IMG/VR virus record: IMGVR_UViG_3300023110_000026
Direction: 5' to 3' (one strand)
DNA from: an uncultured virus (IMG/VR IMGVR_UViG_3300023110_000026)
Lineage: Duplodnaviria; Heunggongvirae; Uroviricota; Caudoviricetes
Length of the DNA stretch: 64,000 nucleotides
This document shows, in pieces, positions 1 to 64,000 of this stretch. How positions within the stretch are numbered: position 1 is the stretch's first letter; the number at the start of each line of letters is the position of its first letter. The notes under the pieces were generated by a model. That model made no database searches, had not been told where the DNA came from, and saw nothing but the letters and a program-made list of their open reading frames with translations. The position numbers were made by a program, and so were the translations under genes.

Positions 1-792
1 ATTTGCTAACGGTCCTGCTTGACAATAGTTGCGATCAGTCACAAAGATTGGAACACCGTTCATTAGTGACGCAACTGTTGGACTACTATTCTTAACAACC
101 ATTGCCCAACACTTATCTAAATCATCCAATAAAGAAACTTTTGTAGTATCGCTTACACGAACACCAAATTCTTTTTCAATTTGTTTTCCGTAATGTAATG
201 CAGTTTTATCTCCCGGATGACAACGAATTTTTATTGGCCTATCAGTATGCTTTCTTAATGTAGATAATGTTTCTCTAAGCCAATCAATTACGTGTTCGCC
301 ACGCATACTCCAACCACCATTTCTTTGCAAACAAATTAAAACGTGTTTTCCTTTATTAGTATATGGAAGTAATTCTAAACCGTATCTATTTCTTAATCTA
401 TCCCAATGTTCTGGTGTTTCAACATCGTAATTACAGTAGTCACCGGTTGCTGGAAATACACCGTCATAACTAAAACGTATTAGTTCACTATCGTTAAACT
501 TTCCAGTAGCATAACTGAACATATTACTATCAATAATAACACAACGTTTAGGTTTTACAGTATTGCGTGTATGTACTAGTTGTCTAAAAGCCAAATGCGG
601 TGCATTTTTTCCGTGCTCGTGTACAAATCCTTGAAGTACTGCAACATCACACTCTTCGTATGTTGTTCCTTCGTGTGCAATGCCCACGTCACCTGCGGCA
701 TTTACACCCTGGACATATGCATGAAGCATTGCTGGTTTTGCTGGATTGTTATTTCGAGGCGGAATACCTCCTAAAAAACTTACTACTTTCAT
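1..792 (-). CDS. Partial (runs off window) GT-B/capsule-biosynthesis-like protein, paralog of 2485..3267
   Basis: Not in ORF track. ATG at 792 overlaps the upstream TAA (TAATG); frame open to base 1: MKVVSFLGGIPPRN...KHVLICLQR...LRKHTDRPIKIRCHPG...SSPTVASLMNGVPIF, matching the TDRPIIVR/SVAATEAILYGVPAF motifs of the paralog. Confidence 0.7.
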   Translation of the reverse strand, partial: MKVVSFLGGIPPRNNNPAKPAMLHAYVQGVNAAGDVGIAHEGTTYEECDVAVLQGFVHEHGKNAPHLAFRQLVHTRNTVKPKRCVIIDSNMFSYATGKFNDSELIRFSYDGVFPATGDYCNYDVETPEHWDRLRNRYGLELLPYTNKGKHVLICLQRNGGWSMRGEHVIDWLRETLSTLRKHTDRPIKIRCHPGDKTALHYGKQIEKEFGVRVSDTTKVSLLDDLDKCWAMVVKNSSPTVASLMNGVPIFVTDRNYCQAGPLAN

Positions 793-1745
793 TATAACAC
801 TGCCTTGACTCTAGTCCAAAAGTCGTTTGTTGCTTGTCTGCATTCAGCAAGAGCATTAGGATGTGTAGACACTTCATCTAACATTTCTTCCCAACCGGCT
901 GGTTTGGCTTTTAAGTAAGGTTTGTGTTTTAATGTGTAGAATTTAGAACTCCACGGCGAAAGTACAATAACTTTTTTACCTAAAAGTGTACCCCAATATG
1001 CTCCGTGATAACTGTTTGTTAAAATAGTATTTGCTGACCCTAGTAATTCAATTGTTTGGTCCATGTTAGCACCAGAATTTACAAATCTTGGTACTGCACC
1101 ATTTCCAAAATCATTACCTTTTATTAGTTGTTTCTTGTGTTCGAACACAATTACATCATTCTTAATTTCATATTTTTTATTAAAAGCCGGATGCATACAA
1201 CTTGCACAAGGCACCCAATCAAAAAGTGGATTTCTTGCTTTCCAAGAATCGTCCCAATAATCTCTAATACCAATCATATCGTAATCTTTGAGTTTTTTAG
1301 GGTATCTTGCATCATCACTTGTGCTTGGATTATAATCTCGTTGATTATGTCCTGCACCCCAAACTATTCTTTTAGTTGAAACGTTTTGTTCAATCTCTCT
1401 AATAGCATTTGTAAGATGATCTTTTAAATTTTTGTTAAATGCTTCGTATAACTTTTGATATTTTGTATTACATAATCTCCATCTATGATCCCACATTTCT
1501 TCTAACTGGTTAATATCTGGATGATTAAAAACTAAATCCATTGATTCACCAAAAAATTCATTGGCTAACAAACCACCACCACCAAATATTACTGGAAGGT
1601 CATCTGGATATTGTTGTCTGCCAATGTTAACAATATCAATTTTTTCATATTCGTCGTCATTTAAAAAATATTGCAACGGATCTGACATAATATCGCCAAT
1701 ATTATTTGGGTCTCTACGATGTATTACAACTGCTTTCTTTTTCAT
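792..1745 (-). CDS. Polysaccharide pyruvyl-transferase-like protein
   Basis: NNIGD, IFGGGG, WGAG, GIRD and TNSYHG motifs typical of this family. Confidence 0.6.
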   Translation of the reverse strand: MKKKAVVIHRRDPNNIGDIMSDPLQYFLNDDEYEKIDIVNIGRQQYPDDLPVIFGGGGLLANEFFGESMDLVFNHPDINQLEEMWDHRWRLCNTKYQKLYEAFNKNLKDHLTNAIREIEQNVSTKRIVWGAGHNQRDYNPSTSDDARYPKKLKDYDMIGIRDYWDDSWKARNPLFDWVPCASCMHPAFNKKYEIKNDVIVFEHKKQLIKGNDFGNGAVPRFVNSGANMDQTIELLGSANTILTNSYHGAYWGTLLGKKVIVLSPWSSKFYTLKHKPYLKAKPAGWEEMLDEVSTHPNALAECRQATNDFWTRVKAVL

Positions 1746-1750
1746 ACTAG

Positions 1751-1756
1751 TAATTA
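1751..1756 (-). promoter_or_regulatory. Variant late promoter TAATTA, 5 nt before ATG 1745
   Basis: TAATTA-CTAGT-ATG, same spacing as the TAAATA sites. Confidence 0.45.
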
Positions 1757-2488
1757 TTTCCTTATCTCAAAGTCTTCGCTTTTCTTGACTTTGCCTTTAT
1801 AGTGGGTCATGTACTCTGCTAGGATTGTGTGCTTAAAAATGGTGTTATGATGACGATTTCCAAGGTCTCTAAAGATCTTCCCATGGCTTTCAAACTCACT
1901 TACTACTGCACCAAACACATCTCCGTCATAAAAACGTCTTAAACTTTCACCATATCCTCTCATATAGTACTCACGGTAGCGATTTATGAAGTCTTCGTAA
2001 TAGTAATGATGTCTATTGATAACATAAAAGCCTGTTTCACCACAAAGAACAGGTTTTATTTTCTTAAATCCTTCGCCTTTTACTTTTTTATGGTCATAAA
2101 CAACAGCCATGTATGTTGCAAGTACATTATCTGGACATAATTTCCATAAAAATTCTTTAGGAATAGGTTTATAGGTAATTACATCACTATCAATCCAAAT
2201 TAAACGATCAGTACCTTCAAATTGACAGGCTCTTAACCAACTAAATGCTTTATAACTAAAAATTTTAACACGTTTTTTGTAATCTTTGGTTTGAAATTCT
2301 CTAAAATCTTCGTCTAGTTCGTCAAAACTGTGATACATTACATTATCGTGATTTTCTAACATAAAGTCTTCAGCAAAAACATGAAGAGTCACATCTTTTG
2401 GCCAATATTTTACAAAAGAGTCAATACTATCCTTACCTAGTTTATCATAGTATGCTTTATTTTGTGTAGTGACCGCTAAAATTTTCAT
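1754..2488 (-). CDS. GT-A fold glycosyltransferase
   Basis: LIWIDSD (DxD), ETGF, RFYDGDVF and HYKG motifs. Confidence 0.65.
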   Translation of the reverse strand: MKILAVTTQNKAYYDKLGKDSIDSFVKYWPKDVTLHVFAEDFMLENHDNVMYHSFDELDEDFREFQTKDYKKRVKIFSYKAFSWLRACQFEGTDRLIWIDSDVITYKPIPKEFLWKLCPDNVLATYMAVVYDHKKVKGEGFKKIKPVLCGETGFYVINRHHYYYEDFINRYREYYMRGYGESLRRFYDGDVFGAVVSEFESHGKIFRDLGNRHHNTIFKHTILAEYMTHYKGKVKKSEDFEIRK

Positions 2489-3267
2489 AATTCTAGTATC
2501 TTTCTTGCTGTACCGTCTTTTAACTCACTATTATGAAACTGTCCATAGGCTAGATGACACGCCCACTTATAAACAAAGTCTGAGTCTGGGTATAACGGGT
2601 GTTCAATACCTTCTAAACTAGACGACGATAATAATGATGCGGCGTTTGGTGCTAGTGTAAACGCAGGAACACCGTAAAGTATGGCTTCAGTAGCGGCTAC
2701 ACTTTGCAAAGTGACCACAGCAAATGCATTATCTAGTTCTTCGTAGATAGATTTACTAAGTCTGACTTTTCTCTTTTCTTTTTCTCGAACAATAATTGGT
2801 CTATCAGTAAACTTTTTTAAATTAGTTAATACAGTGTTCTTCCATTCTTGAAGATTTATATCATAGAATATAGCAGGTTTTTCACTAGGCATAACAACAA
2901 GAATATTACGCCCATCTTTCTTCCATTTTGGAATTTTATACTTTAATGCTTCCCATCTATCACTCGGGCGTTCAACAATGACGTTATGTTGTAAATCATT
3001 TTTTACAATTCTGTGAAAAATTTTATAACCCATAGGATTAATAGGAGATTTATAATTACCCATATATCCACTATCAATGTAATAAAAGTCTCGTTTATCT
3101 TCCCAACACTTTTTCATAATGTCGTGACGAAGAATTCCTCTTAAAACAATAGGATCAGAAGAATTATTATAATCAAAGTTGTCTAAATTTATTGAACCGT
3201 GCTGATCAAAACTTGATGCAAACATATTGACATATTCGTCGGTTCCGCCTTTGCTTATAAACTTCAT
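2485..3267 (-). CDS. GT-B/capsule-biosynthesis-like protein
   Basis: YIDSGY, TDRPIIVR, SVAATEAILYGVPAF; lies within the GT cluster. Confidence 0.5.
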   Translation of the reverse strand: MKFISKGGTDEYVNMFASSFDQHGSINLDNFDYNNSSDPIVLRGILRHDIMKKCWEDKRDFYYIDSGYMGNYKSPINPMGYKIFHRIVKNDLQHNVIVERPSDRWEALKYKIPKWKKDGRNILVVMPSEKPAIFYDINLQEWKNTVLTNLKKFTDRPIIVREKEKRKVRLSKSIYEELDNAFAVVTLQSVAATEAILYGVPAFTLAPNAASLLSSSSLEGIEHPLYPDSDFVYKWACHLAYGQFHNSELKDGTARKILEL

Positions 3268-3959
3268 TAAATTGGTTTCCAGTTAGGATTTACTTTATTT
3301 GCTCTTTCAATCCACTGGTCACCATATTCAACATCTTTACAATTTTCAAACCAAGGACCGCCTTCGGTGTAATGTAATGCTTTAGGTTTGCCGTCTTTTG
3401 ACTCGTTATACCAACCGACTAACCAATTCCACTCGTGACTTACTTCGCCTATTTCTTTATCTTTCAACCAACTAAAGCGATGTAAGAATTGTCCTGTTTC
3501 TTTGTTTACCATACTAGGAATAAGTCGTGCGTTGCTAGGATGTCCGCAATTCCAAAGAATCATCGAACTCCAGTTTTTACGTGGATATGGTAGTTGTGCT
3601 TTACCATCCATCTTTGTTCCCTCTTTTACATTATATTCGTGTTTAGCAACCATAACAGCATACTTGTCATCACGTTGTGCAAATAATTTATCAATATCTT
3701 CTAACCATAAAAAATCACAATCACAAAAAACTGCCCAACCCTTATAGTTCATTAGGAACGGAATAAGAAAACGTGTAAATGTAAATTCAGTTGAACTTAA
3801 TTTGTCAACTGATCGTGTGTAAATTCCTTGATTTCTTAACTCGTGTTGTTTTAAATGCTTAACGTCGATTATTTCTTCAGTGCTATGACATAAACTATAT
3901 TCGCAAACATCACTAGCAATAGGTTCACGGCTATCGTAGCCTATAAACACAGTATTCAT
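3267..3959 (-). CDS. GT8-like glycosyltransferase
   Basis: FIGYD, STEFTFTRF, FCDCDFL, YPRKNWSS, WNWLVG and HYTEGGPW motifs. Confidence 0.8.
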   Translation of the reverse strand: MNTVFIGYDSREPIASDVCEYSLCHSTEEIIDVKHLKQHELRNQGIYTRSVDKLSSTEFTFTRFLIPFLMNYKGWAVFCDCDFLWLEDIDKLFAQRDDKYAVMVAKHEYNVKEGTKMDGKAQLPYPRKNWSSMILWNCGHPSNARLIPSMVNKETGQFLHRFSWLKDKEIGEVSHEWNWLVGWYNESKDGKPKALHYTEGGPWFENCKDVEYGDQWIERANKVNPNWKPI

Positions 3960-3960
3960 G

Positions 3961-4761
3961 TTATTTTCCTTCTTTCCCGTAATCGTCGCTTACACCTATA
4001 CGACTTATATCATCTTCAATACAATTATCACCGTATTGTATTTCAATAATTCTTAACGGCTTTTTTGTTTTATTTTCTAATTGGTGCCATTCCCCAACGC
4101 CTATATTTAATTTATCAAATCTATTAAGCGTATCCATTTCTTCTAAGTCAGTTGAGCCGTCAATAGTATTAACTGTTGCAGTTCCTTCACTTACAAACCA
4201 TAGTTCGTTTCTGTGTTTATGTTTTTGCATACTCAACCGTTTACCCGGATCGACTGTAAGTTCTTTTAATTTAACTTCGTTGCCAACACCAAATAAAACT
4301 CTGTAATATCCCCATGGGCGTTCAGTTTTAGGATACTTATAATCTTCTAGTATCCAACTGCTTGAATTCTTTTTATCACTGCCGCCTACACCAAATTGAA
4401 ATGATAGTCTACTATCGTCAATTAACATCTCAGGAATGTTTGTTTTAGTTCTATCTCCACCATTAGCAAAGATAACACTATCGCTTAAAAAGTTGTGTTC
4501 GTTAAGTACTTGCTGAATAGCATCGTTAGCAGTGTTATCGCTATCGTCAAAATCAATAACTTTGTCAACTACTGAAAGGTTTTCAATAATAGTTGCACGT
4601 TCCTCAAAAGGCATAAATGGCTTGCCTTTTTTACGTGTTAACCAATCATCTGAGTTAACACCAACAACTAGATAATCTCCTAGTTCTTTTGCGGCTTTAA
4701 AATAGGCAATGTGTCCTGAGTGTAAAGGATCAAAGCCTCCTGTGACTAATACTATCTTCAT
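3961..4761 (-). CDS. Cytidylyltransferase-family nucleotidyltransferase fused to a mannose-6-phosphate-isomerase-type cupin
   Basis: N-terminal GGFDPLHSGH (HxGH) and FANGGDR; C-terminal RPWGYY...LSMQKHKHRNELW...WHQLEN...IEIQYG. Confidence 0.8.
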   Translation of the reverse strand: MKIVLVTGGFDPLHSGHIAYFKAAKELGDYLVVGVNSDDWLTRKKGKPFMPFEERATIIENLSVVDKVIDFDDSDNTANDAIQQVLNEHNFLSDSVIFANGGDRTKTNIPEMLIDDSRLSFQFGVGGSDKKNSSSWILEDYKYPKTERPWGYYRVLFGVGNEVKLKELTVDPGKRLSMQKHKHRNELWFVSEGTATVNTIDGSTDLEEMDTLNRFDKLNIGVGEWHQLENKTKKPLRIIEIQYGDNCIEDDISRIGVSDDYGKEGK

Positions 4762-4766
4762 GTTAA

Positions 4767-4772
4767 TATTTA
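4767..4772 (-). promoter_or_regulatory. T4-type late promoter TAAATA, 5 nt before ATG 4761
   Basis: TAAATA-TTAAC-ATG. Confidence 0.65.
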
Positions 4773-5492
4773 TTTGGTATTAGTTTTGCTAAGAGCAATG
4801 CTGATTATGTCTTCAAATATTTCATTTCCGGTCATATTTTTACGTAATTCTTTAGGAGTTTTGCTACCGTAATGCAAAAACCCTGTATCGTAATAATGAA
4901 ACCCTCTTTCACAATCTGTATTTCTTATTTTATATCTTGGATAATCATCAAATAAACTTTCAACAGCATCACCGTCATATGGACGATACAAGTCAAATAT
5001 TTTACCACTGTTCCATAAGTTTTCGTATGTATTGATTAACACTTCTGTGTCTTTGCAGTTAGGATCTAACATAATGAATCCGCTGTCGTGCTTATCTTGT
5101 TTAGATGTGCCACACCCCCATAATAATTTTGATTGCTTAAATTGTTCTATCTCATTATATAGTTTTTCTTCATCAAAATTTATAACTTCTATGTCAGTAT
5201 CTAACAAAATTATGTAATCATACTCTTTTAGATTTCGAAATGCCCATACTTGGCTTTGCATTTTTTTCCAAAAGTTTGTAGACTTCCTTACTGTACGCGG
5301 GTGTTTTAAAAAAGAGCAGTTTCTATCTAAAACAGATTCTAATTCAATTATTTTTGTTTGTTTAAGATTGATCTTATTACTATCATGAATAATAAATTTA
5401 TCTCCAGGCAACTGTTCCCAACTTGGTAAACAATGCTGTGCAATTAGGTTCCAATATCCTTCGTCTGCTAATCCTGACCATGCTATTTTCAT
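4770..5492 (-). CDS. GT-A fold glycosyltransferase, distant paralog of 1754..2488
   Basis: ILLDTD (DxD), DSGF, RPYDGD and HYG motifs parallel those of 1754..2488. Confidence 0.6.
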   Translation of the reverse strand: MKIAWSGLADEGYWNLIAQHCLPSWEQLPGDKFIIHDSNKINLKQTKIIELESVLDRNCSFLKHPRTVRKSTNFWKKMQSQVWAFRNLKEYDYIILLDTDIEVINFDEEKLYNEIEQFKQSKLLWGCGTSKQDKHDSGFIMLDPNCKDTEVLINTYENLWNSGKIFDLYRPYDGDAVESLFDDYPRYKIRNTDCERGFHYYDTGFLHYGSKTPKELRKNMTGNEIFEDIISIALSKTNTK

Positions 5493-6103
5493 TATATAAA
5501 CAATTTCCTTTTAAAATATTTTACGTCAAACAGTACACTATTAAACATAACACGCGGTATCATATAACCATACTTAACAACTATATCTAATGCTTTTTTA
5601 CATCCTAACGGGGTTATTAGATATGCATCAAAGTTAGATAAACTTCTAGGAACAAACCCTGCATTATAGTCGTCATGCTGTCCAATATGCCAGTTATTAT
5701 GATTTTCTAAACTAACAATACTATTTTCAAATTCCCATTCACCTGCACTTAGATTGAGAACTTCTGTATAATGTTCATTTATGTTTCCAGGAATTGGCCA
5801 CTGTTGCCAGCGGTAATCTTCTGTTATTAAAACAGATTTATCTAATTCAATACACTTCTTCCATGCACGAAAGTGATTATAAAACTTTTCAAAATCAGAA
5901 TCTGTCTTGTGTTTAGACATTCTGTAGTTTTTGTACTTTCCGTGTGTACTGCTTATTAGATTTTGTGATAAAGGGTTTAGTGTTATTATGCTTTGAATAT
6001 TATCTCTATTATAACCTAATTCAACAAAGCGATCATAACAATCTTGATATGTTTTTTCAGTAGTTGTGGTATTGTTAAGTATTATAACATCAAATTGATG
6101 CAT
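5492..6103 (-). CDS. GT25-like glycosyltransferase
   Basis: HFRAWKKC...VLITED and AYLITPLG motifs resemble GT25. Confidence 0.5.
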   Translation of the reverse strand: MHQFDVIILNNTTTTEKTYQDCYDRFVELGYNRDNIQSIITLNPLSQNLISSTHGKYKNYRMSKHKTDSDFEKFYNHFRAWKKCIELDKSVLITEDYRWQQWPIPGNINEHYTEVLNLSAGEWEFENSIVSLENHNNWHIGQHDDYNAGFVPRSLSNFDAYLITPLGCKKALDIVVKYGYMIPRVMFNSVLFDVKYFKRKLFI

Positions 6104-6548
6104 CTTCCATTCCTGCTACACGTAGTTTCGTAATATTAGTTATCTGCCATTGCTTTTGATCAAGGCCTTTTAAGATTCCTAACCACTTATTACGTAGCAG
6201 TGCAAACTCGTTGATAATTTTTTCCATATCAACAACGTCTGATTCACCGTCAACATATTTTTCAACGTCGCGGCTACTTAATGCTCTTTGATAAGATTCT
6301 AAATATGTTTTAAAGAATTTTGATCGTGTTCTTCGAAGTTCGATGTTTAGGTATTCAAGGATCGCTTCGATCTCTTGTAGTTGTCCAAAACGCTTTTCTA
6401 CAACACCAGGAAGGTTTCCAGCATTCTTTTCAAGGTTTCCCTTTAAAGAACACTCAATTCTGGCTTCTTGCATTTGTTCCTCATACCATATAATAGCATC
6501 AGGAATGTTAGAAATGTCTTGCGATATCCTTGAATACCAATTTATCAT
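6090..6548 (-). CDS. uvsY: UvsY-like recombination mediator
   Basis: ~150 aa helical protein (YQRALSSRDVEKYVDGE...KGLDQKQWQITNITKLRVAG) downstream of uvsX. Confidence 0.75.
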   Translation of the reverse strand: MINWYSRISQDISNIPDAIIWYEEQMQEARIECSLKGNLEKNAGNLPGVVEKRFGQLQEIEAILEYLNIELRRTRSKFFKTYLESYQRALSSRDVEKYVDGESDVVDMEKIINEFALLRNKWLGILKGLDQKQWQITNITKLRVAGMEDASI

Positions 6549-6812
6549 CTAATAATCTTCCGAATCGTATCTATCATCATAGTCTTCATCATCGTAGTCA
6601 TTATCGTATACACCTTCTGAGCCGTATACTTCTTCTACGGCTTCTTTAAGGTATGGATCCTGGTCGCCCATAGCATACAAAACGGATTCTTCAGCACCGT
6701 TATCTACACACCAGTTTACAAACTTCATAGCACTGTCTTGTTTATTTTTTACGTCTATAAAGTCAGCAAACGAATCCCATAGGTCAATTAACTGTTCTTC
6801 ACTTAGATTCAC
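6549..6812 (-). CDS. Acidic hypothetical protein
   Basis: 87 aa ORF tightly packed between uvsX and uvsY. Confidence 0.7.
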   Translation of the reverse strand: MNLSEEQLIDLWDSFADFIDVKNKQDSAMKFVNWCVDNGAEESVLYAMGDQDPYLKEAVEEVYGSEGVYDNDYDDEDYDDRYDSEDY

Positions 6813-7917
6813 TTAGAGTCTCCTGTTCAACGGGTTCAACATCATCAACTTGCGATTCTTTTTCTGAATCGTTGTCGAGTTCGTTATACTTATCACCGTT
6901 GGCAGAATAATCTTTCATAATGATTTCAAGTTGTTCACCGTCCCAATCTTTACGATAGTGTAAGTGTTCTTCACCTTGTGAATCTACAAATTTAAGTCTA
7001 TTTCCTTGTTGTTTTAATAGTCCTTGTTTTTCAAACAATTCAACTAATCCACTGTAAGGATTCATACCTGTTTCGTATGGAATCTTTACTTGTACACCTT
7101 CAAAAGGTTTTGCGTATCGTGTTTTCATTACCTTACAAGCGGCTCTGATACCACGTACATCTGTGACCTTTTTACCATCTTCATCTTCTTTTAGTTTTAG
7201 TTTTTTCATTGCTACAACAATTGAAGATGCATAGATAAAGCCTTGACCGCCTGAGATTTTGTCATCTGGGTCAAACATATCTTGCGATGCGTAAGTGTGG
7301 TTAGTTGCTACAAGTCCTACGTTATAACTACCAAACATATTAACACAGTTTCTTACAAGTGCAGTTAGTGCCTTAGGCTTACGGCCCATATCACCTTTCA
7401 AATCACCTTTATCAAACTGATCAACATCTGTTGGTGTTAGTAGCATACCAAGTGAATCAACTACAAACAATACTTTAGGACGATCCGCTGGATCCATAGC
7501 ATCGTAATCATCACGATACTCTTTCATAAAGTTTGAAATAGTTTTTGCTACATCATCGATCATACTCATCGATAACTTTAACAATTTTTCTTCACTTGTG
7601 TCAACATTAAGTGCCTGCAACCATTTTTCATCAAGTGCATTTTCACTATCAATTAGCACAACAAAGATACCTTGTTCTTGTGCCGCTTTAACAATGTTAG
7701 CACTTGCGAAGTATGATTTACCTGCACCGGATTCACCTGCAAACACTGTGACCTTACCTAGCGGAACACCCTTATGGAAGTCACCACTAATAAGATAGTT
7801 TAGTGCAAAGTTGCCGGTTGATACCCAATCGGTTGGATCGTTAAAGCCTACACCAAGTCCTTGAATGGACTTGGTCAGACCCTTACGAAACTTTGATACA
7901 TCAAATGGTTTCGCCAT
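6799..7917 (-). CDS. uvsX: UvsX/RecA-like recombinase
   Basis: Walker A GESGAGKS, IDSENA, VVDSLG, TNHTY, ISGGQG. Confidence 0.93.
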   Translation of the reverse strand: MAKPFDVSKFRKGLTKSIQGLGVGFNDPTDWVSTGNFALNYLISGDFHKGVPLGKVTVFAGESGAGKSYFASANIVKAAQEQGIFVVLIDSENALDEKWLQALNVDTSEEKLLKLSMSMIDDVAKTISNFMKEYRDDYDAMDPADRPKVLFVVDSLGMLLTPTDVDQFDKGDLKGDMGRKPKALTALVRNCVNMFGSYNVGLVATNHTYASQDMFDPDDKISGGQGFIYASSIVVAMKKLKLKEDEDGKKVTDVRGIRAACKVMKTRYAKPFEGVQVKIPYETGMNPYSGLVELFEKQGLLKQQGNRLKFVDSQGEEHLHYRKDWDGEQLEIIMKDYSANGDKYNELDNDSEKESQVDDVEPVEQETLSESK

Positions 7918-7926
7918 GATTACTCC

Positions 7927-8934
7927 TTACGATTGACGTGAACGGATCATGTTCAAAATGTCTTGAGCACGTTCACTTGAAGGTTTATCATCAGTATCAG
8001 CAGTTGCAGTTGTTTCAACTGTTCCTGTTTCGTCTCTAGTCACTCCAGCATTAGCATCTTCTTCAGGTGCTGTCATCGGAGCAGGCTTAGACTCTGCTAC
8101 TGGTTGAGTTGGTTTAGCACTATTTGGATCACCAGTTGGAGCACTCATGCCTGGAGCACGAAAGTACTGACCCCATTTATCTGGATCATATGCTTCGCCA
8201 TCAACAGATGCTTCAAACATCTCTTGAATAACCTTAACTTCAACTTCAGTTGGTTTCTTAGGAAGGAAATCATTTAGATTGTACAATCCATGTGAGTCAA
8301 CTGCCGCTTTCTCTTCATCAGTTAAAGCACGTTCTCTACGTGACCATTGTGATGTTGAGTAATCAGCATAACCACCTTTAGAAGTTTTCTTAATGCGGAA
8401 GTCTACACCTCGTGCATAATCAGTTGGCAATTCTTCCATCTCAGGATCCATTAATGCACCCTTAATGATTTGGAAAATTTGTGGTCCAATGATAAAACGT
8501 CTAATTGGATTCTCTGGAGTAGTATCTTCAGAGATAGGATTGTCTGCTACAAAACCTTGGAAGATGTAAGAACGTTTCTTCCAATATTTACGACCTTGGT
8601 CTTCTAGTGAAGGGTCTTTAAACCAACCACGTACTTCTGAAAGTACAGGGCAAGTTTCGCCATACATTTCCATACATGGAACGTTAACTGTCACTGGGCG
8701 TGAGTCAGTTTGGCCTTTGATTCCCGCAAAAGGAAGTTTGATCATTAAACGTTCTTTCCAAAAGAATACGTTTTCAGGATCAGCGTCAGGTAAGAAACGA
8801 AGTACTGCTTCGCTACCTTCTGCCATATTCCAATGTGGGTAAATTGCGTTGTCGCCGCCGCTTGTTTGATTACCGCCGCCTTTACGATCTTCTTGTTCAC
8901 GTAATTTTGCACGGATTTCTGCTAGTGTTGCCAT
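7927..8934 (-). CDS. gp32-like single-stranded DNA-binding protein
   Basis: LRFLP, CxxxxxxxCP, G.DFRIKKT.KGGYADYS motifs and acidic tail; SD AGGAGG; adjacent to uvsX. Confidence 0.88.
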   Translation of the reverse strand: MATLAEIRAKLREQEDRKGGGNQTSGGDNAIYPHWNMAEGSEAVLRFLPDADPENVFFWKERLMIKLPFAGIKGQTDSRPVTVNVPCMEMYGETCPVLSEVRGWFKDPSLEDQGRKYWKKRSYIFQGFVADNPISEDTTPENPIRRFIIGPQIFQIIKGALMDPEMEELPTDYARGVDFRIKKTSKGGYADYSTSQWSRRERALTDEEKAAVDSHGLYNLNDFLPKKPTEVEVKVIQEMFEASVDGEAYDPDKWGQYFRAPGMSAPTGDPNSAKPTQPVAESKPAPMTAPEEDANAGVTRDETGTVETTATADTDDKPSSERAQDILNMIRSRQS

Positions 8935-9002
8935 AATTTAAGCCTCCTATATTTTGCCTTTATGTGCCTGTTGTAGATACGTCTTTCTAACAACATATCT
9001 AT

Positions 9003-9031
9003 ATTATATTTAGTCTTTATCTAAAAGTCAA
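9003..9031 (-). promoter_or_regulatory. Sigma70-type promoter TTGACT-N17-TATAAT (overlapping a TAAATA) driving gp32-uvsX-uvsY
   Basis: Minus strand TTGACT TTTAGATAAAGACTAAA TATAAT. Confidence 0.8.
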
Positions 9032-9679
9032 CTACTTTTTAAGATAAGTTTGCCAAAAATTCCATGCAGGCATCCAAACCATATTGATTACAATACGTCT
9101 TGGTACAACTGTTGGTGTTGCACTTGCATGAAATTGGTTTGATGGAAATAGTATTGCTGATCCTTTTTTTGGAACGTTTGCAATCAGTTCCTTCATATCA
9201 TCTTGAGGACCTAAATGGTCTGGCTTCCCATATGGATTTGCTCCAACATTTTTATCAAAAATTCTTGTTGGTCCATCTGCTTCATTAACATAGTAAACCA
9301 TACTTAATGATTCTTCATATGGTTGATCAATATGTGGCGGATGAAACATTGTCTCATCTGAACCGTCTGGCGTTAATAAATTGGCCTTAATTCGAGTAAG
9401 TTCTTTTACAGGAATTCCCGTTTCTTTTTCAAAAAAGTAAAAGATAGGTTTGATCATTTCAAACGTTTGGCTAGCATGGCCAGTTTGAGGATTTAGTATG
9501 TCATGAACAAACTGTGGACTTTCTTTTATTTTTTCTTTATTTGCTAAGAATTGAAATTCCCAACTAGAAAAGCCACTTGTGTTATCCTGCCAAGTCCAAG
9601 GTAAAGAAGGATCCATAAAGATTGCTTCTAAATGGTCCTGCATACTTTTAGGTATTAAGTCTTCAAATATATGATACAT
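9032..9679 (-). CDS. 2OG-Fe(II) oxygenase superfamily protein
   Basis: HxD (PHID), distal FHAS and RRIVIN motifs. Confidence 0.8.
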   Translation of the reverse strand: MYHIFEDLIPKSMQDHLEAIFMDPSLPWTWQDNTSGFSSWEFQFLANKEKIKESPQFVHDILNPQTGHASQTFEMIKPIFYFFEKETGIPVKELTRIKANLLTPDGSDETMFHPPHIDQPYEESLSMVYYVNEADGPTRIFDKNVGANPYGKPDHLGPQDDMKELIANVPKKGSAILFPSNQFHASATPTVVPRRIVINMVWMPAWNFWQTYLKK

Positions 9680-9684
9680 ACACT

Positions 9685-9690
9685 TACTTA
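9685..9690 (-). promoter_or_regulatory. Variant late promoter TAAGTA, 5 nt before ATG 9679
   Basis: TAAGTA-AGTGT-ATG. Confidence 0.5.
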
Positions 9691-9711
9691 TTAAGTATGT
9701 TTATGAGTCAG

Positions 9712-11778
9712 TTATTTTCTGATTCCAGCAAGTGTTTTGATTCTATTTAGATCTTCGTTTGTCTTACGTAGTGCTTTTTTCACACCAGGGTGATCTGATA
9801 AACCTTTTGCAATTTTTTCAATTGTATCAACAGCACCACTATAATTTCCGCCTTTGTAGCGTTTATCGTTTAGCACACCATAAGCCATTTTAATTTGTTT
9901 ATCGCTAAACCCGTGGTTGTCTTTTTCAGCACCCTTTTCTTCCTCTACTTCGTCGCCAAGTTGTACCTTATTCCCGGTCAGTTTGGATACAAACTTTTCA
10001 ACTAGATCCCCTACGGAATCACCAAAACGCTTACGAGCGGAAATAACCACGCCTGTTTCGCCTTTTGGAAACGCTCCAGTTTCTTTGTCATAGAATGAGC
10101 GAACAAACTCTAATACTTCTTCTGCAGAAGATTTAGTGTCTTTAGGTTCTTCTTCTTGTCCAGCAAGACTCATAGAACCGTCTTTACCAATTACAACATC
10201 TGTTGTATCTGCTTCAGACATATCACCAAAGTCTAAGTCATCCATAGCCTCTGGCATATTGTTTTTAACATAAGAGTAAATCAAAGGTTTAGCATCAGCA
10301 TCAGCATCTTTTTCTGCTAGTGCTTTGATGTCATTTACAAATGTTATATCATCAATGATTCCTTCTAAACTGCTAATTGCGTTTGTTCCATCTGGACCAA
10401 CTGGTAGGTCTCTTTGTAGAAGTTTGTTTAATACAGCAATACGTTGGTTGTCTAAGTTTTCGTCAACAACATCGTTTGCCCATGATTCAAATTCATCAAT
10501 GTCTTCACCGTGTGCGTATTTGTTATCACGGTTTGCCCATCGATCGTCTGCATCTTCTTGTGCCGCGGCCATAAGTTCGTCTGGATCTTGCATTTCAAGA
10601 TCCGTATCAGCATCGTAGCCTAGTTTGCTATTACCGTCCATAGCACAACTTAAATGAAATGACTTTGGATGTACAACTGGTCTGCCGTCAACTATTGTTG
10701 CTGTGTAATAAAGAGTACAGCCTGTAGTTTCACCGTCATCACCTACACCCTCGAAATCAACTTCACCATCAAAATGCTCTGGATCAAATCCTTCGTTAGC
10801 AAGTTTATCAAGATCTACTGTTGTTTCACTAATACGCTTTTGATGAATACTGTGTAGTAATGGGAACATATCAGTTAGGTCCTCATTAAATTGAGGAATA
10901 GTAAATGCATTGGTTAGATCGTTTACAACGTCATCACCCAATTGGTTGTCCATATCAGTTGCGACAAAGTTTTCTTTTTGTTGTGTATAGTATGATTGGG
11001 TTTGTAATTTTTTAATGTGTGTTCTTAGGTTTTCAAGTTCAGCATTACTACCTTCAATAATATCATTTGAAGTTTGATTCATAAAGTCTTTGTTTTGTAC
11101 ATATCTTTTGAACGCTGTTAGTTTAGCAATGTTTGATGAAGTTTCAATAATGTGTTTACCAAACTCATCATGTGGAAGTCCGCCGTTTGCAACGTGACGT
11201 GACATTGCTCTAGCACCTGCTAAGTGATTGTATGGATACTTAAATCTTTCTCCTGCTTCGTTTTCAATAAAAAGTGTTTGAATATTTCTAGCACGAGCAC
11301 CCATTTGCTCTGCATTAATTTCCTTTTTATGTCTAATAATTAATCTTGTTCTATCTAAGTTTTCATAACTAGATTTTGTAGTACCATACATTGCTGACTC
11401 CTGAACTTTATTTCCTAAATATTTATAGTCACGTTTGTCTAAATTACTTTTAGCAATATCCTTAGCATCAAATCCCATCATATGTTTCTTAGAAAAGAAT
11501 CTCATATCTTTTAAGAAATCATACCATGCATCTTCTGTTGCTTCGTTAGCGTTTTCGAGCATTCCCTGGCTAAAATACAGTTTTAATGTATCAGGATCCT
11601 TAATGCTTATGCTTACAGCACCTTGATTCTCTCCATCGACTACATAGTCAAAATCAAAGAATCGTGCCTTGCTCTCCTCGCTAGTAGGAGCACCGTTTTC
11701 GTCACCCATTTCAATGCGTGGAAAACGTGATCTAATTTTCTCAAATAGAGATGATGCTATTGAATCTAAACCCTTCAT
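9712..11778 (-). CDS. Large acidic hypothetical protein, probable internal head/morphogenesis protein (start re-called to ATG 11778)
   Basis: Follows terminase; perfect TATAAATA lies just before ATG 11778; many [LIVF]xE sites; ends RIKTLAGIRK. Confidence 0.65.
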   Translation of the reverse strand: MKGLDSIASSLFEKIRSRFPRIEMGDENGAPTSEESKARFFDFDYVVDGENQGAVSISIKDPDTLKLYFSQGMLENANEATEDAWYDFLKDMRFFSKKHMMGFDAKDIAKSNLDKRDYKYLGNKVQESAMYGTTKSSYENLDRTRLIIRHKKEINAEQMGARARNIQTLFIENEAGERFKYPYNHLAGARAMSRHVANGGLPHDEFGKHIIETSSNIAKLTAFKRYVQNKDFMNQTSNDIIEGSNAELENLRTHIKKLQTQSYYTQQKENFVATDMDNQLGDDVVNDLTNAFTIPQFNEDLTDMFPLLHSIHQKRISETTVDLDKLANEGFDPEHFDGEVDFEGVGDDGETTGCTLYYTATIVDGRPVVHPKSFHLSCAMDGNSKLGYDADTDLEMQDPDELMAAAQEDADDRWANRDNKYAHGEDIDEFESWANDVVDENLDNQRIAVLNKLLQRDLPVGPDGTNAISSLEGIIDDITFVNDIKALAEKDADADAKPLIYSYVKNNMPEAMDDLDFGDMSEADTTDVVIGKDGSMSLAGQEEEPKDTKSSAEEVLEFVRSFYDKETGAFPKGETGVVISARKRFGDSVGDLVEKFVSKLTGNKVQLGDEVEEEKGAEKDNHGFSDKQIKMAYGVLNDKRYKGGNYSGAVDTIEKIAKGLSDHPGVKKALRKTNEDLNRIKTLAGIRK

Positions 11779-11783
11779 ATATG

Positions 11784-11791
11784 TATTTATA
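11784..11791 (-). promoter_or_regulatory. Full T4 late promoter TATAAATA, 5 nt before ATG 11778
   Basis: TATAAATA-CATAT-ATG. Confidence 0.8.
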
Positions 11792-11794
11792 CTA

Positions 11795-13384: not shown

Positions 13385-13389
13385 ACTAA

Positions 13390-13395
13390 TATTTA
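13390..13395 (-). promoter_or_regulatory. Late promoter TAAATA, 5 nt before terminase ATG
   Basis: TAAATA-TTAGT-ATG. Confidence 0.7.
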
Positions 13396-13411
13396 GTGAG
13401 GTTTTGTGGGG

Positions 13412-13585
13412 TTAAGAGTTTTTCTTTGCCATCTTAGTTGCAGTAGCATACATTACTGCTTCTGCATCTTTGCCATAGCGGTCTTTAAAATCGCCTTTGG
13501 CTTTTTTCATACCTTTGACGTATTTTTCTTTGGTCTTTTCTTCTTTCTTAGAAAGTTTACGTTCTGTTAGTTCGTATATACGCAT
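13412..13585 (-). CDS. 57 aa basic hypothetical protein (below ORF-track cutoff)
   Basis: ATG overlaps upstream TAA; MRIYELTERKLSKKEEKTKEKYVKGMKKAKGDFKDRYGKDAEAVMYATATKMAKKNS fills the gap. Confidence 0.75.
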   Translation of the reverse strand: MRIYELTERKLSKKEEKTKEKYVKGMKKAKGDFKDRYGKDAEAVMYATATKMAKKNS

Positions 13586-15690: not shown

Positions 15691-15692
15691 AA

Positions 15693-16187
15693 TTATTCCC
15701 CTGATTGTCTTTCTTTTGCTTCTTTAGCAAGACTTTGTAAAAACGTTTCTTTACCTTTTTCTGTGACAACTAACTCATCTTTATTAACATCAGGTGCATC
15801 TTTGTATTCTGGATCACCAAGTTTTGCTTCGTATGGCTTATTGTCTGATTCTTTTTGCATTTCCTCATAGTCTTCACCTGGCTTACGAACTCTTAAGTTC
15901 TCAACACTTACATTACAGAAATTTGCAATGTAATGTCTTAGGTGATCCTGTGTTGTAGGATAGTTTAAAGTAGTTTCATAAACTGTGACTTCTGAGTTTG
16001 GATTTTGTGGAAAGTCTAAAGGTAAACTTTGAATAGGAGTTTTTTTACCTGAAGATAGATTAGCAATTTCAAACTTTTTAAGTGCAGTTTCTAAACGGTC
16101 GTCAAACCCTTCAGGTAATTCGCCCGCCAGTTTAATAACAAAATCGTATTGTTTTGATGCTTCTGCAAGATACTTTTTAAAATCCAT
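15693..16187 (-). CDS. Hypothetical protein with capsid-targeting-like N-terminus
   Basis: MDFKKYLAE resembles the T4 CTS MKTYQEFIAE; SD AGGAG; TAAATA at 16210..16215. Confidence 0.6.
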   Translation of the reverse strand: MDFKKYLAEASKQYDFVIKLAGELPEGFDDRLETALKKFEIANLSSGKKTPIQSLPLDFPQNPNSEVTVYETTLNYPTTQDHLRHYIANFCNVSVENLRVRKPGEDYEEMQKESDNKPYEAKLGDPEYKDAPDVNKDELVVTEKGKETFLQSLAKEAKERQSGE

Positions 16188-16208
16188 GTTAACTCCTAAT
16201 ATATACAG

Positions 16209-16700: not shown

Positions 16701-16705
16701 ACTAT

Positions 16706-16711
16706 TACTTA
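16706..16711 (-). promoter_or_regulatory. Variant late promoter TAAGTA, 5 nt before ATG 16700
   Basis: TAAGTA-ATAGT-ATG. Confidence 0.5.
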
Positions 16712-17149: not shown

Positions 17150-17151
17150 AA

Positions 17152-17532: not shown

Positions 17533-17541
17533 AATTTATTC

Positions 17542-18678: not shown

Positions 18679-18683
18679 ACTAT

Positions 18684-18689
18684 TATTTA
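18684..18689 (-). promoter_or_regulatory. Late promoter TAAATA, 5 nt before ATG 18678
   Basis: TAAATA-ATAGT-ATG immediately after the terminator. Confidence 0.7.
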
Positions 18690-18694
18690 GTCGT

Positions 18695-61437: not shown

Positions 61438-61767
61438 TTAAGTTTGTTCCGCATAACTTATTACTGCGTCAACGCTATCTGCATAACTTGACGAAATTTG
61501 TAAAGTATGATATTCATCTAGTACTAATTTCTCACTACCATTTAATGCTCTTAGTGATCCGTTTGGTGGTATTGGAACATCTTTTGCGTAATATGCTACA
61601 ACACTACCTGCGTCTTTAACCATAACACTTCCTAACACTGTACTATCTTTTGTATTTGCTAGTGAAATGCCCATAATTACAACTTTTCTATTAACAGGAA
61701 CATTGATCGCATCAATTGGTAATTGACCTACGTCTTTTATAATTGCATTTTTTAATATCGTTGCCAT
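61438..61767 (-). CDS. Small beta-sandwich virion protein, paralog of 47595..47912
   Basis: NVP...V...LAN...KDVPIP..GSL...KLVL pattern. Confidence 0.6.
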   Translation of the reverse strand: MATILKNAIIKDVGQLPIDAINVPVNRKVVIMGISLANTKDSTVLGSVMVKDAGSVVAYYAKDVPIPPNGSLRALNGSEKLVLDEYHTLQISSSYADSVDAVISYAEQT

Positions 61768-61776
61768 CTATTTTCT

Positions 61777-63999
61777 CTATCCATATATTAATGCGTTTAA
61801 GAATGATAGTTCTTCCGCTTCTTGGAATGTAATACCACCCTGTTGTCCAACAACAGATGCCCATACACTACCATCCCACACTTCTAATCTACTCTGCTGA
61901 GTGTTATATCTTGTTAAACCTACAGCAAGATTAGACACTGGTCTATTGTTGTTATCACCTACTGGAAACTTAAGACCATATGTTCCATTAAAATCCACAT
62001 ATCCTTCGTCTGTTCCAGCAAAGTTAATCTGTGAATCACTTACTACATTAGTTATCGTATTTGTGCCCTGATCCCACTCTACATCTCCAATTACTACTTT
62101 ACCTGTACCGTTTGGAGCAATAGTTAAATCTGCATCTGTAGCCTCTGTACTAAGTGTATTAACGTGAATTGTGTCAGTATTAAAACGTGTTGCATTTAAA
62201 TCTGCTGTTAGTCCTGCCGCGCCATTATAAAATCTAAATGTATCGTCGTCATTACCTTGTGTTAATTCTGCTGTGATATAAGTGTCTAAGTCTTGGTCAA
62301 CAACACCACTTACACTACCACCAACTGCATTCCAAAATCCGTCTGCATATAATTCAAATACGTTTGAACTTGTGTTATATCTAAACATACCATTAACAGG
62401 TGTGCCCGGTCTTTGAGCAGTTGTACCTGCAGGAAGTTTAATAGCATCATCACTGTTAAAGTCTACATATCCGTCGCCGTGTGCAAAAATTTCTAAATTA
62501 GTATCGTTTCTAAATGTTTGTACAGAGTTGTTAATTAATTTAACTTCGTCTGAAATAAATGATGTTGTTTGTAAACCATCACTATCGATATAAGCAATAG
62601 TTGTTCCTGCAACATCAAAAGTAATAACATCATTGTCTGCACCAAGTGTAGTTTCAACGTTTACTTTAGTATCACCATCTTGGTCACGGATTTCATTAAA
62701 TCCGCCATTAATCACTAAGTTTCCGTCAATTACAACATCTGATGATCCATCTGGATTAATTGTTAAGTCACCGCTTGTAGTAATGATTTGATTACCACTA
62801 ATTCTAATATTTCCTGTTTCAACTCTGCTAGGATCTACAATAGTTGTATTTCCACCGTCAGTAAATGTTAAACCAGATAATGAACTAATATCAAAACTTT
62901 CTGCTTCAAATGTGACGTTTCCTGTTTCTTGGTCAACAGTAAATGCATTACCAACTCTAAAGTCACCGCTTTGGTCAATTGAACTGAATAATACTTTACC
63001 GTTGTTTGTTTCAGTAATTTCGTTTGCTTGAATTACTCTAGAAACATCATTTTCTAAATTCTTTCCAACGCCTACGTATCCAAAGTTATGATTGATCAAT
63101 CTTAGGAGAACACCGTCGCCGTCTGCAATAACACCTTGATTTCCGTAAACGTTTGCACTACCAATTGCTCTTAGTTCAGCACCAAATTGTTTAAGATCAA
63201 TAAATTCAATGCCTGTTGCACTACCACCACTTGAAGAAGAAATATCAACTTGAACTGCTACATCTTCTGTGACTGTTGTACTAGCATTTGCACCATTAAA
63301 GTGTGTTAAAAATACTGTTGTGCTATCTCCAACAAACTCTGCTGTTGGTGTTGAAAAACCTGACAAATATCTTGGTAAACCTTTAGTGACTCTTAGTTCG
63401 TCTACATATCCTGTAAACAAGTTTGTGTTATTATAGTCGCCACCAATACCAAACATTCTTGCTGTACCATAGTTGTTTGTATCACTATATGTTGATCCGT
63501 CTTGATTTCCGTTAACAAACAATTTTGTTCCATCGTTTGATCTAGAAACAGCAATATGGTACCAAGTGTTTGTTAGTAGTACATCTGTTCCAGTAATAAC
63601 ATCACTACCAGCAACAGCAACTCTTACATTAGCACCGTTAGTATAAACACTAATTGCATTATCACTTGCTTCTGTTCTCATATCAAACAAGTATTGTGTT
63701 CCTGTGACTCCGTCAAATCTAAAGAAGCCTTCAACTGTAAAGTTTCCTTCTCCAAATCCAAAATCATTTGAACTAGGCACACTTGCATAATCACCTGTGC
63801 CATCTAGGTATAAACTTGCTGTACCAAACTTTTTCTGTGTAGTACTTAAAGAACTATTTCCTGTTAGGTTAATAGTTTTACTTTTTCTATCAGTTGTTGT
63901 AGACCAACCTGAAACTTTACCATCAAATGTTAATCTTAATCTGCCGTCAACTGTTTCTTTTGATTCAATAGTACCTTGTGCTAGTACTGTTGATCCGTC
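61777..63999 (-). CDS. 5'-truncated large virion structural protein with LamG/ConA-like domain
   Basis: Frame stays open from 63780 to the window end (..TQKKFGTASLYLDGTGDY..); FTVE.F, WYHIAVSR, LFVNG, GYVDELRV; two P.G....RP.....G..RYNT repeats. Confidence 0.8.
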   Translation of the reverse strand, partial: DGSTVLAQGTIESKETVDGRLRLTFDGKVSGWSTTTDRKSKTINLTGNSSLSTTQKKFGTASLYLDGTGDYASVPSSNDFGFGEGNFTVEGFFRFDGVTGTQYLFDMRTEASDNAISVYTNGANVRVAVAGSDVITGTDVLLTNTWYHIAVSRSNDGTKLFVNGNQDGSTYSDTNNYGTARMFGIGGDYNNTNLFTGYVDELRVTKGLPRYLSGFSTPTAEFVGDSTTVFLTHFNGANASTTVTEDVAVQVDISSSSGGSATGIEFIDLKQFGAELRAIGSANVYGNQGVIADGDGVLLRLINHNFGYVGVGKNLENDVSRVIQANEITETNNGKVLFSSIDQSGDFRVGNAFTVDQETGNVTFEAESFDISSLSGLTFTDGGNTTIVDPSRVETGNIRISGNQIITTSGDLTINPDGSSDVVIDGNLVINGGFNEIRDQDGDTKVNVETTLGADNDVITFDVAGTTIAYIDSDGLQTTSFISDEVKLINNSVQTFRNDTNLEIFAHGDGYVDFNSDDAIKLPAGTTAQRPGTPVNGMFRYNTSSNVFELYADGFWNAVGGSVSGVVDQDLDTYITAELTQGNDDDTFRFYNGAAGLTADLNATRFNTDTIHVNTLSTEATDADLTIAPNGTGKVVIGDVEWDQGTNTITNVVSDSQINFAGTDEGYVDFNGTYGLKFPVGDNNNRPVSNLAVGLTRYNTQQSRLEVWDGSVWASVVGQQGGITFQEAEELSFLNALIYG

Positions 64000-64000
64000 T

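What the first reader, a model, noticed from the sequence alone, without database searches (positions are those of the whole stretch)
1..64000. Three palindromic motifs appear completely purged: AGCT, GTWAC and GCWGC
Seen: reading through the window I found no GTAAC/GTTAC, and in extensive spot checks no AGCT or GCAGC/GCTGC. Near neighbours (GTCAC/GTGAC, GTTAAC, GCCGC/GCGGC, GATC, CCGG, GGCC, GANTC) are common. Codon pairs are bent against the AT bias to do this: Val-Thr is GTC ACA or GTG ACT, Ala-Ala is GCG GCA or GCC GCT, Cys-Cys-Cys is TGC TGT TGC, Glu-Ala is GAA GCA. Rough expectation at ~35% GC (estimated by eye) is tens to a couple of hundred sites each. Established: AGCT (AluI) and GCWGC (TseI/ApeKI) are type II restriction sites. 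Inference: long-term selection by host restriction systems, including a W-specific GTWAC specificity distinct from GTNAC (MaeIII) or GTSAC (Tsp45I). This gives a host fingerprint and suggests the DNA is not broadly shielded by hypermodification.
Basis: partly seen in the sequence, partly recalled or inferred. Interest (0 to 1): 0.75.

Follow-up and report, generated by a model that had tools for sequence, protein, structure and literature searches.

The report
Phage purges its own nuclease's site
This uncultured giant phage has erased several short DNA words from its genome, and at least one of them (GTWAC) looks like the target of a restriction enzyme that the phage itself carries without the usual protective methylase, so that having no sites is its self-protection.

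Summary
Confirmed and extended: AGCT, GTWAC and GCWGC are absent from the window and the 182-kb contig (codon-shuffle expectation 515, 370, 167); RCATGY, RCGCGY and HGCGCD are absent too. The phage is an uncultured PA5oct/Paride-related giant myovirus. The host-only reading misses the main point. About 58 kb past the window the phage encodes a 272-aa protein whose model best matches restriction endonuclease BstEII. Its homologs almost always sit directly before a DNA methyltransferase (52 of 59 loci), and DNA carrying them is specifically short of GTWAC (median O/E 0.18, n=18, against 0.98 in 67 family loci). Here and in one sister locus the adjacent methyltransferase is missing and GTWAC is zero; none was found in 227 kb, but the genome is incomplete. 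Best reading: a phage-borne GTWAC nuclease, with immunity by site purge. AGCT and GCWGC are older, clade-wide purges whose enzyme (host or phage) is unidentified. 'Not hypermodified' is contradicted: the phage has a DpdA3/DpdL/FolE/QueE deazaguanine cluster, and palindromes that always contain GA/GG were never purged (0 of 1,204 tests). No enzyme activity was tested.

The parts
1..64000 (.). Structural and replication region of the phage with zero AGCT, GTWAC, GCWGC, RCATGY, RCGCGY, HGCGCD (window = G000:C1:23807-87806). The genes that explain the pattern lie on the same contig OUTSIDE the window, all on the - strand: 272-aa BstEII/Tsp45I-like nuclease C1:146075-146893 (inferred target GTWAC, no adjacent methylase); 191-aa PD-(D/E)XK-like protein C1:145503-146078; DpdA3-type transglycosylase C1:159880-161337; DpdL-motif gene C1:158721-159164; 372-aa weak glycosyltransferase hit C1:157366-158484; FolE C1:156665-157351; QueE C1:151660-152553; YhhQ C1:14869-15489; conserved 143-aa GIY-YIG C1:102687-103118.
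   Evidence: counts; outside genes:
11798..13384 (-). Terminase large subunit used to place the phage (best cultured hits 56-58% to the PA5oct/Paride group) and to fetch relatives
1798..23381 (.). Stretch around the terminase shared with relatives L009-L052; compared with orthologous DNA that keeps GTWAC (e.g. L013 51/49 at 94% terminase identity) but also lacks AGCT and GCWGC

Best explanation
The phage carries its own type IIP-like restriction endonuclease (272 aa, C1:146075-146893) that recognises GTWAC. The family normally travels as an R-M pair; in this lineage the linked methyltransferase is gone and the genome protects itself by having no GTWAC. Inferred path: capture of the R-M pair, gradual loss of sites under imperfect methylation (seen as partial depletion in pair-carrying phages), loss of the methylase once sites reached zero. 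Inferred use: cutting host DNA (shut-off, nucleotides) and/or DNA of co-infecting relatives, which carry hundreds of sites. AGCT and GCWGC are older clade-wide purges against enzymes not identified here (host type II R-M or further phage nucleases; about even odds), on DNA that is probably partly shielded by 7-deazaguanine at G followed by a purine. Shown: counts, gene content, fold, co-occurrence. Inferred: specificity, activity, loss of the methylase genome-wide, function, chemistry.
For: Atlas look-alikes BstEII (0.94) and Tsp45I (0.91). Model pLDDT 94; Foldseek top hit BstEII-DNA 9ibq E 1.5e-4, the only match under 0.001; VIA top rows PspGI Z 8.5 (rmsd 5.2, 171 aligned) and BstEII Z 8.2 (5.1, 214). 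Invariant E133, D179, K192, E208 intact. Next gene is methyltransferase-like in 52 of 59 metagenome loci; 5 have no downstream ORF, 1 a cut ORF, 1 (L375) an unrelated gene; PF01555 confirmed for 3 of 5 such genes scanned, the other 2 only weak Eco57I hits. Codon-null GTWAC O/E in carriers: median 0.18, 15 of 18 below 0.6, vs median 0.98, 3 of 67 below 0.6 in family loci (Mann-Whitney p 9e-8, not corrected for kinship); GTWAC is the most depleted W/S 5-mer palindrome in 13 of 26 dereplicated carriers, GTSAC is not depleted. 18 of 18 relatives whose same gene slot is closed lack the gene and keep GTWAC near expectation (not dereplicated). L375, another phage background (AGCT 19/45), has a 73% identical copy without adjacent methylase and GTWAC 0/18; dN/dS between the two about 0.13. 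At 136 orthologous GTWAC sites of 4 relatives (80-83% nt identity) this phage keeps 0 (87 synonymous, 49 non-synonymous), against 115 of 190 GATC kept. No DNA methyltransferase in Pfam scans of 49+131+53 ORFs, family search of 5 same-species records, or tblastn with 4 methylases over 227 kb.
Against: The contig is rated 50% complete and linear; about 227 kb were seen, so an unlinked methylase is not excluded. The two copies without adjacent methylase are sisters (100/96), so the loss may be one event, and a lone nuclease moving between phage backgrounds needs explaining. 2 carriers show no depletion (G019 1.06, L379 1.04) and L401 only 0.67. Two GTWAC-free relatives (L126, L077) could not be shown to carry the gene (short records). 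Many carriers are related. L375 gives only 0 vs 7 under the codon null. Carriage could track a host that has the same R-M (bacterial-looking homologs, e.g. L395 beside a secG-like gene). No enzyme was assigned to AGCT or GCWGC: G008 purges both without the 191-aa gene in 156 kb. No activity data.
Confidence: 0.68

Rival explanations
1. Host-driven avoidance for all motifs: the host has GTWAC, AGCT and GCWGC type II systems; the phage nuclease is a passenger picked up from that host.
For: Avoidance of orthodox type II sites is common in non-temperate phages (PMC6286503 passages). GTWAC methylation exists in 3 marine prokaryote MAGs, two of them archaeal and also AGCT-modified (PMC8919816 supplement rows). 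Homologous R-M pairs occur on low-GC bacterial-looking contigs. For AGCT and GCWGC no phage enzyme was found.
Against: Host pressure predicts keeping the methylase and losing the nuclease, the reverse of what is seen; the nuclease is intact and under purifying selection. Relatives at 92-94% TerL identity that share the AGCT and GCWGC purge have normal GTWAC (e.g. L013 51/49). The archaeal MAGs are unlikely hosts: the phage has peptide deformylase, ClpA/ClpP and T4-like structure genes.
Confidence: 0.15
2. A complete phage R-M system with the methyltransferase moved to the unassembled part of the genome; the purge is only extra safety.
For: Genome incomplete; pair-carrying phages can reach O/E 0.04-0.07; unlinked R and M genes are reported, though rarely (PMC4176335 passages).
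Against: Methylase is adjacent in 52 of 53 informative loci; none in 227 kb; a methylase with zero target sites has nothing to protect.
Confidence: 0.1
3. The nuclease is inactive, or blocked by deazaguanine, and the zero count is a relic of an earlier R-M phase.
For: DpdA3 enzymes are reported to replace all G in three phages (PMC10516641 passages); 71% of type II enzymes were blocked by dG+ in phage 9g (PMC5567051 section 6).
Against: Not one site has re-arisen in 227 kb at 36% GC, which needs ongoing selection; catalytic residues intact, dN/dS about 0.13; insertion of deazaguanine is post-replicative, leaving new DNA exposed.
Confidence: 0.07

Closest known systems
Restriction-site avoidance in non-temperate dsDNA phages (Rusinov et al. 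2018, PMC6286503, passages read)
   Same: Orthodox type II palindromes driven to zero by synonymous recoding.
   Different: That survey pairs sites with host-encoded enzymes; here the GTWAC enzyme appears to be phage-encoded.
T4 endonuclease II (denA) (PMC2764454, passages read)
   Same: Phage-encoded sequence-selective nuclease that starts host DNA degradation.
   Different: T4 protects itself by hydroxymethylcytosine and the enzyme is a promiscuous GIY-YIG; here a PD-(D/E)XK type IIP-like enzyme, and protection is by absence of the site.
Chlorovirus R-M systems (PMC7019647, passages read)
   Same: Virus-encoded restriction endonucleases thought to degrade host DNA.
   Different: There R and M genes are always adjacent; here the adjacent M is missing and the site count is zero; bacteriophage, not algal virus.
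BstEII / Tsp45I type IIP endonucleases (sites GGTNACC and GTSAC recalled, not from a call)
   Same: Fold (9ibq top hit), PD-(D/E)XK-type residues, GTNAC core, family normally paired with an N6/N4 methylase.
   Different: 11-14% identity in the structural match; inferred site GTWAC; no REBASE check was possible; two searches showed GTWAC as a methylation motif in one methylome paper only and no listed paper with RCGCGY or HGCGCD.
Phage 7-deazaguanine modification, DpdA3/DpdL branch (PMC10516641) and motif-specific CAjan DpdA (GA, GGC; PMC7544227)
   Same: TGT-fold DpdA near DNA polymerase, DpdL motif, FolE, QueE, YhhQ; similar gene order to PA5oct/Paride.
   Different: DpdA3 is described as replacing all G; the purge pattern here suggests a G-purine context instead; QueD and QueC not found in the assembled part.

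Membership tests
Type IIP restriction endonuclease (BstEII/Tsp45I-like) | PD-(D/E)XK restriction-enzyme fold | tested here: met
   pLDDT 94 model; Foldseek BstEII E 1.5e-4; VIA PspGI Z 8.5 (rmsd 5.2, 171 aligned), BstEII Z 8.2 (5.1, 214)
Type IIP restriction endonuclease (BstEII/Tsp45I-like) | Intact conserved acidic/lysine catalytic residues | tested here: met
   E133, D179, K192, E208 invariant in 43 sequences and present here; their roles are inferred
Type II R-M system | Linked cognate methyltransferase | tested here: not met
   Met for the family (52 of 59 loci) but not here: neighbours are a MoxR-type ATPase and a 191-aa nuclease-like gene; none in 227 kb; rest of genome unseen
Type IIP restriction endonuclease (BstEII/Tsp45I-like) | Sequence-specific double-strand cleavage at a short palindrome | not testable with these tools
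   GTWAC inferred from co-occurrence only
Host-driven restriction-site avoidance | Palindromic type II-like site eliminated beyond codon effects | tested here: met
Host-driven restriction-site avoidance | The host encodes the cognate endonuclease | not testable with these tools
   Host unknown; MAG hits of the DpdA gene are scattered over unrelated taxa
DpdA3 7-deazaguanine system | TGT-fold transglycosylase homologous to a listed DpdA3 | tested here: met
   Foldseek matches TGT and DpdA 7ui4 (E 5e-5; model pLDDT only 58); 36% to PA5oct QCG76197.1, listed as DpdA3
DpdA3 7-deazaguanine system | Precursor genes FolE, QueD, QueE, DpdL | tested here: inconclusive
   FolE, QueE, DpdL motif, YhhQ present; QueD not found in G000, genome incomplete
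DpdA3 7-deazaguanine system | Complete replacement of guanine | not testable with these tools
   Needs LC-MS or nanopore; context-dependent purges hint at a partial, motif-based modification

The most novel reading that the evidence does not exclude
This family of giant aquatic phages runs 'restriction without modification': it collects lone sequence-specific nucleases (a hypervariable nuclease slot plus a conserved GIY-YIG) and each all-or-none purge (GTWAC, AGCT, GCWGC, RCATGY, CTAG, HGCGCD, RCGCGY) is self-immunity to one of its own enzymes, used against host DNA and co-infecting kin. Absent words would then predict the specificities of many new restriction enzymes straight from metagenomes, and surviving contexts would give the target of the deazaguanine insertase.
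Probability: 0.35. Interest if true: 0.9.

Novelty: new variant of a known kind. Interest (0 to 1): 0.8.

Why it matters
Site avoidance in phages is routinely read as a footprint of host restriction and used as a host fingerprint; here at least one zero-count word tracks a phage gene, which would mislead such inference. It gives a directly testable new specificity (a GTWAC cutter with its partner methylase in relatives), a natural series from R-M pair with partial depletion to lone nuclease with none, and a route to assign specificities to uncultured enzymes from sequence alone. R-M systems were reported as nearly absent from phages (9 in 831 genomes, 12 solitary endonucleases; PMC4176335 passages).

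Tried and rejected
Archaeal (Poseidoniia) host from the GTWAC+AGCT methylome match: rejected, phage gene content is bacterial. A single rule 'G followed by purine protects any site' as the whole explanation: not enough; CTAG is purged in every flank in 5 loci (0/33, 0/53, 0/28, 0/35) and CATG shows no dose response; RCATGY may simply be an NspI-type site. The 191-aa protein as RCATGY cutter: rejected; RCATGY is 0 in 19 of 22 loci but present in 8 or more further carriers. As AGCT/GCWGC cutter: open (22 of 22 carriers lack both, but so do L286, L289 and G008 without it). PADLOC scan of 81 proteins found no restriction or methylase model for this phage's unannotated ORFs, nor for the 272-aa protein; Pfam missed both nucleases and PDB sequence searches missed DpdA. 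Prospective test on the GTWAC-free L126 lineage: inconclusive, the one further same-lineage contig (L479, 0/14) stops before the slot; profile search of 5 partial records gave nothing. Host from GTDB hits: uninformative. RNA-library contigs of 4 salt-marsh runs cover parts of the nuclease gene at depth about 1-3, with no silent control laid, so transcription is not shown. No bipartite (type I-like) word was near-absent (lowest 7/24). PMC12619734 (moraphages; passages) did not bear on this. Whether the unseen part of the genome holds a methylase stays open. bioRxiv supplements and REBASE could not be consulted and may hold a GTWAC enzyme.
Full report
1. Observation. The claim is exact. In the window AGCT, GTWAC and GCWGC occur 0 times against 148, 127 and 65 expected; in the whole 181,867-base contig 0 against 422, 336 and 182. 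Shuffling synonymous codons over 155 genes gives expectations of 515, 370 and 167, and shows the sinks: GTSAC 1.78x, GCSGC 4.59x. Three more words are at zero: RCATGY (0/101), RCGCGY (0/23), HGCGCD (0/72). Another record of the same phage adds 45.5 kb with the same zeros and a single GCWGC, in the context GGCAGCC.

2. What the DNA is. A T4-like giant myovirus: sheath, portal, gp23, terminase; best cultured terminase hits 56-58% to the PA5oct/Paride group. The record is linear and rated 50% complete. The window is C1:23807-87806. The host was not identified; peptide deformylase, ClpA/ClpP, DksA-type and AlgH genes argue for a bacterium (inference).

3. The purges have different ages. In 80 terminase loci those at 84% identity or more essentially all lack AGCT and GCWGC (L028 is an exception for AGCT, 10/46), whereas GTWAC is normal even at 94% (L013 51/49). 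Under a codon null in 67 dereplicated family loci (37 found by DpdA, 30 by terminase) purges were called for GCWGC 39 times, AGCT 33, RCATGY 13, CTAG 5, GTWAC 2, ACGT 1. At 136 GTWAC sites in orthologous genes of four relatives this phage keeps none (87 synonymous, 49 non-synonymous differences), against 115 of 190 GATC sites kept.

4. A phage gene tracks GTWAC. Between a MoxR-type ATPase and a DUF2201 gene lie two unannotated ORFs (C1:146075-146893, 272 aa; C1:145503-146078, 191 aa). The Atlas gave BstEII and Tsp45I look-alikes for the first and PD-(D/E)XK look-alikes for the second. The 272-aa model (pLDDT 94) has BstEII-DNA as its only Foldseek match under E 0.001; VIA ranks PspGI (Z 8.5, rmsd 5.2, 171 aligned) and BstEII (Z 8.2, 5.1, 214) first. 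E133, D179, K192 and E208 are invariant in 43 sequences. Homologs are followed by a methyltransferase-like gene in 52 of the 59 metagenome loci tabulated (4 of 63 left out: 2 same species, 2 duplicates); five have no downstream ORF, one a cut ORF, and one, L375, an unrelated gene (motif tags, with PF01555 confirmed for 3 of 5 scanned). Thirty carrier loci or records of 5 kb or more were dereplicated to 26; the 18 with GC above 0.36 and at least 5 expected sites have median GTWAC O/E 0.18 (15 below 0.6) against 0.98 in the 67 family loci (3 below 0.6), p 9e-8 without kinship correction; GTWAC ranks lowest among W/S 5-mer palindromes in 13 of 26; exceptions are G019 (1.06) and L379 (1.04). All 18 relatives with the slot closed lack the gene and keep GTWAC. 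The two copies without an adjacent methylase, this phage and L375 (73% identical, different position and background), both have zero sites (L375 0/18 Markov, 0/7 codon null), are sisters nested among paired copies and show dN/dS about 0.13. No DNA methylase was found in about 227 kb.

5. Mechanism. Most likely the enzyme cuts GTWAC, and this lineage went from an R-M pair with partial depletion to a lone nuclease with no sites. Keeping R and losing M is the reverse of what host restriction would select. By analogy with T4 EndoII (PMC2764454, passages) and chlorovirus enzymes (PMC7019647, passages) the use is host-DNA degradation; interference with co-infecting kin is the other candidate, since the slot in relatives holds changing HNH, GIY-YIG-like and PD-(D/E)XK-like genes (the last two labels are by eye). 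Specificity, activity and use are inferred. Weak points: incomplete genome, one probable loss event, related carriers, two GTWAC-free relatives untestable.

6. AGCT and GCWGC. No enzyme assigned. All 22 loci with a 191-aa homolog at 57% or more lack both, and a distant split homolog sits beside two methylases, but L286, L289 and G008 purge both without it in the part seen. Host type II systems remain as likely as phage enzymes.

7. The DNA is probably modified. C1:159880-161337 folds like TGT/DpdA (model pLDDT 58) and is 36% identical to PA5oct QCG76197.1, listed as DpdA3, with a DpdL-motif gene, FolE, QueE and YhhQ; QueD was not found. In the 67 loci, the 24 palindromes that always contain GA or GG on a strand were purged in 0 of 1,204 tests, the 16 other G-containing ones in 93 of 1,030 (7 motifs), A/T-only ones in 0 of 536; DpdA was verified only for the 37 DpdA loci and G001. 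Three cultured T4-like controls with no DpdA3 hit in the DNA sampled do deplete such words: Melnitz GATC 23/454, GGACC 0/110; phiM12 GGCC 21/225, CCAGG 0/91; S-SRM01 GGCC 13/88. CGCG shows a dose response with purines after G (0/100, 0.26-0.38, 1.18), and AGCT survivors have a 5' G in 20 of 31 cases against 32% background, while GTWAC survivors do not (1 of 11). CAjan DpdA targets GA and GGC (PMC7544227, passages). Against: CTAG is purged in all flanks, CATG shows no dose response, and DpdA3 is described as replacing all G (PMC10516641, passages). I put G-purine shielding at about 0.6. Earlier scan notes on other genomes raise the same shielding idea (AI notes, not independent support); none was found on a phage-encoded nuclease.

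8. Novelty. Site avoidance is known (PMC6286503, passages); phage R-M is reported as rare (PMC4176335, passages). The listings of searches showed no paper describing a phage restriction endonuclease made safe by site purge or a GTWAC endonuclease; GTWAC appears as an m6A motif without a known methylase in three marine MAGs (PMC8919816, passages and supplement rows). The library lacks most subscription papers, bioRxiv supplements and REBASE. The ICP1 chimeric nuclease paper (PMC8263062) was seen as a search listing only. The sites of BstEII, Tsp45I and TseI are recalled. Verdict: observation confirmed, first interpretation partly supported, new variant of a known kind, interest 0.8.

Noticed in passing
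G000:C1:102687-103118 (L003:15690-16118 -): RCGCGY is zero across the family (0/100 clade, 0/45 distant, G018 0/73, G008 0/29, G009 0/18) but not in G019 (67/116) or Paride (18/32). A 143-aa GIY-YIG is 70-81% conserved in G008, G009, G018, only distant in G019, absent from Paride and not found in partial G001; its 78% homolog is in Methylophilales phage Melnitz, which has CGCG 1/54.
   Followed up: partly
G000:C1:145446-146996 and L242-L295: The slot between the MoxR-type ATPase and DUF2201 is a hypervariable cassette in relatives (170-aa HNH, 250-aa PD-(D/E)XK-like, 119- and 179-aa GIY-YIG-like, 205-, 199-, 375-aa unknowns).
   Followed up: partly
G008 (L355-L362) and L101, L113, L133, L135-L137, L139-L141: All-or-none CTAG purge (G008 0/392) in a subset of relatives; no gene assigned.
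   Followed up: partly
G000 + G011 extension: Partial depletions left unexplained: AGCCC 16/83, GGGCTA 2/26, GTCTCA 5/37, GCTAGC 4/30, TCCGAA 7/44, CCGA about 0.5; G008 has AAGCCC 0/33, AGCCCT 0/29.
   Followed up: no
L080 (G001), L144, L063, L072, L082: Other lineage-specific depletions: AATT 0.18, TGCA 0.15, ACGT 0.09, GGCC 0.15, TCGA 0.18.
   Followed up: no
window 1-5500, 27668-30600, 39960-42973: Glycan/heptose gene set: glycosyltransferase-like ORFs, HldE-like kinase/nucleotidyltransferase, epimerase, carbamoyltransferase, GT9-like; may decorate virion or DNA.
   Followed up: no
window 47931-61060 (-): Two 2,170- and 2,194-aa tail fibre proteins of the same PHROG family, each with four CBM5/12 matches.
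   Followed up: no
L352:2800-20000 (G011): Cluster of four radical-SAM, several 2OG-Fe(II) oxygenase and tryptophan-halogenase-like genes.
   Followed up: no
L183-L235: DpdA-like homologs at 25-32% identity in many, mostly proteobacterial, genomes, some with two or more copies.
   Followed up: no
L170, L173, L174: Contigs filed in Marinimicrobia, Pacearchaeota and Methanobacteriota MAGs carry 70-83% DpdA homologs and share some of the purges (GCWGC, HGCGCD); probably mis-binned phage DNA.
   Followed up: partly
L270, L276, L392, L429: The same nuclease family is paired with a different methylase class (weak Eco57I hits for L270, L276) in these loci.
   Followed up: no
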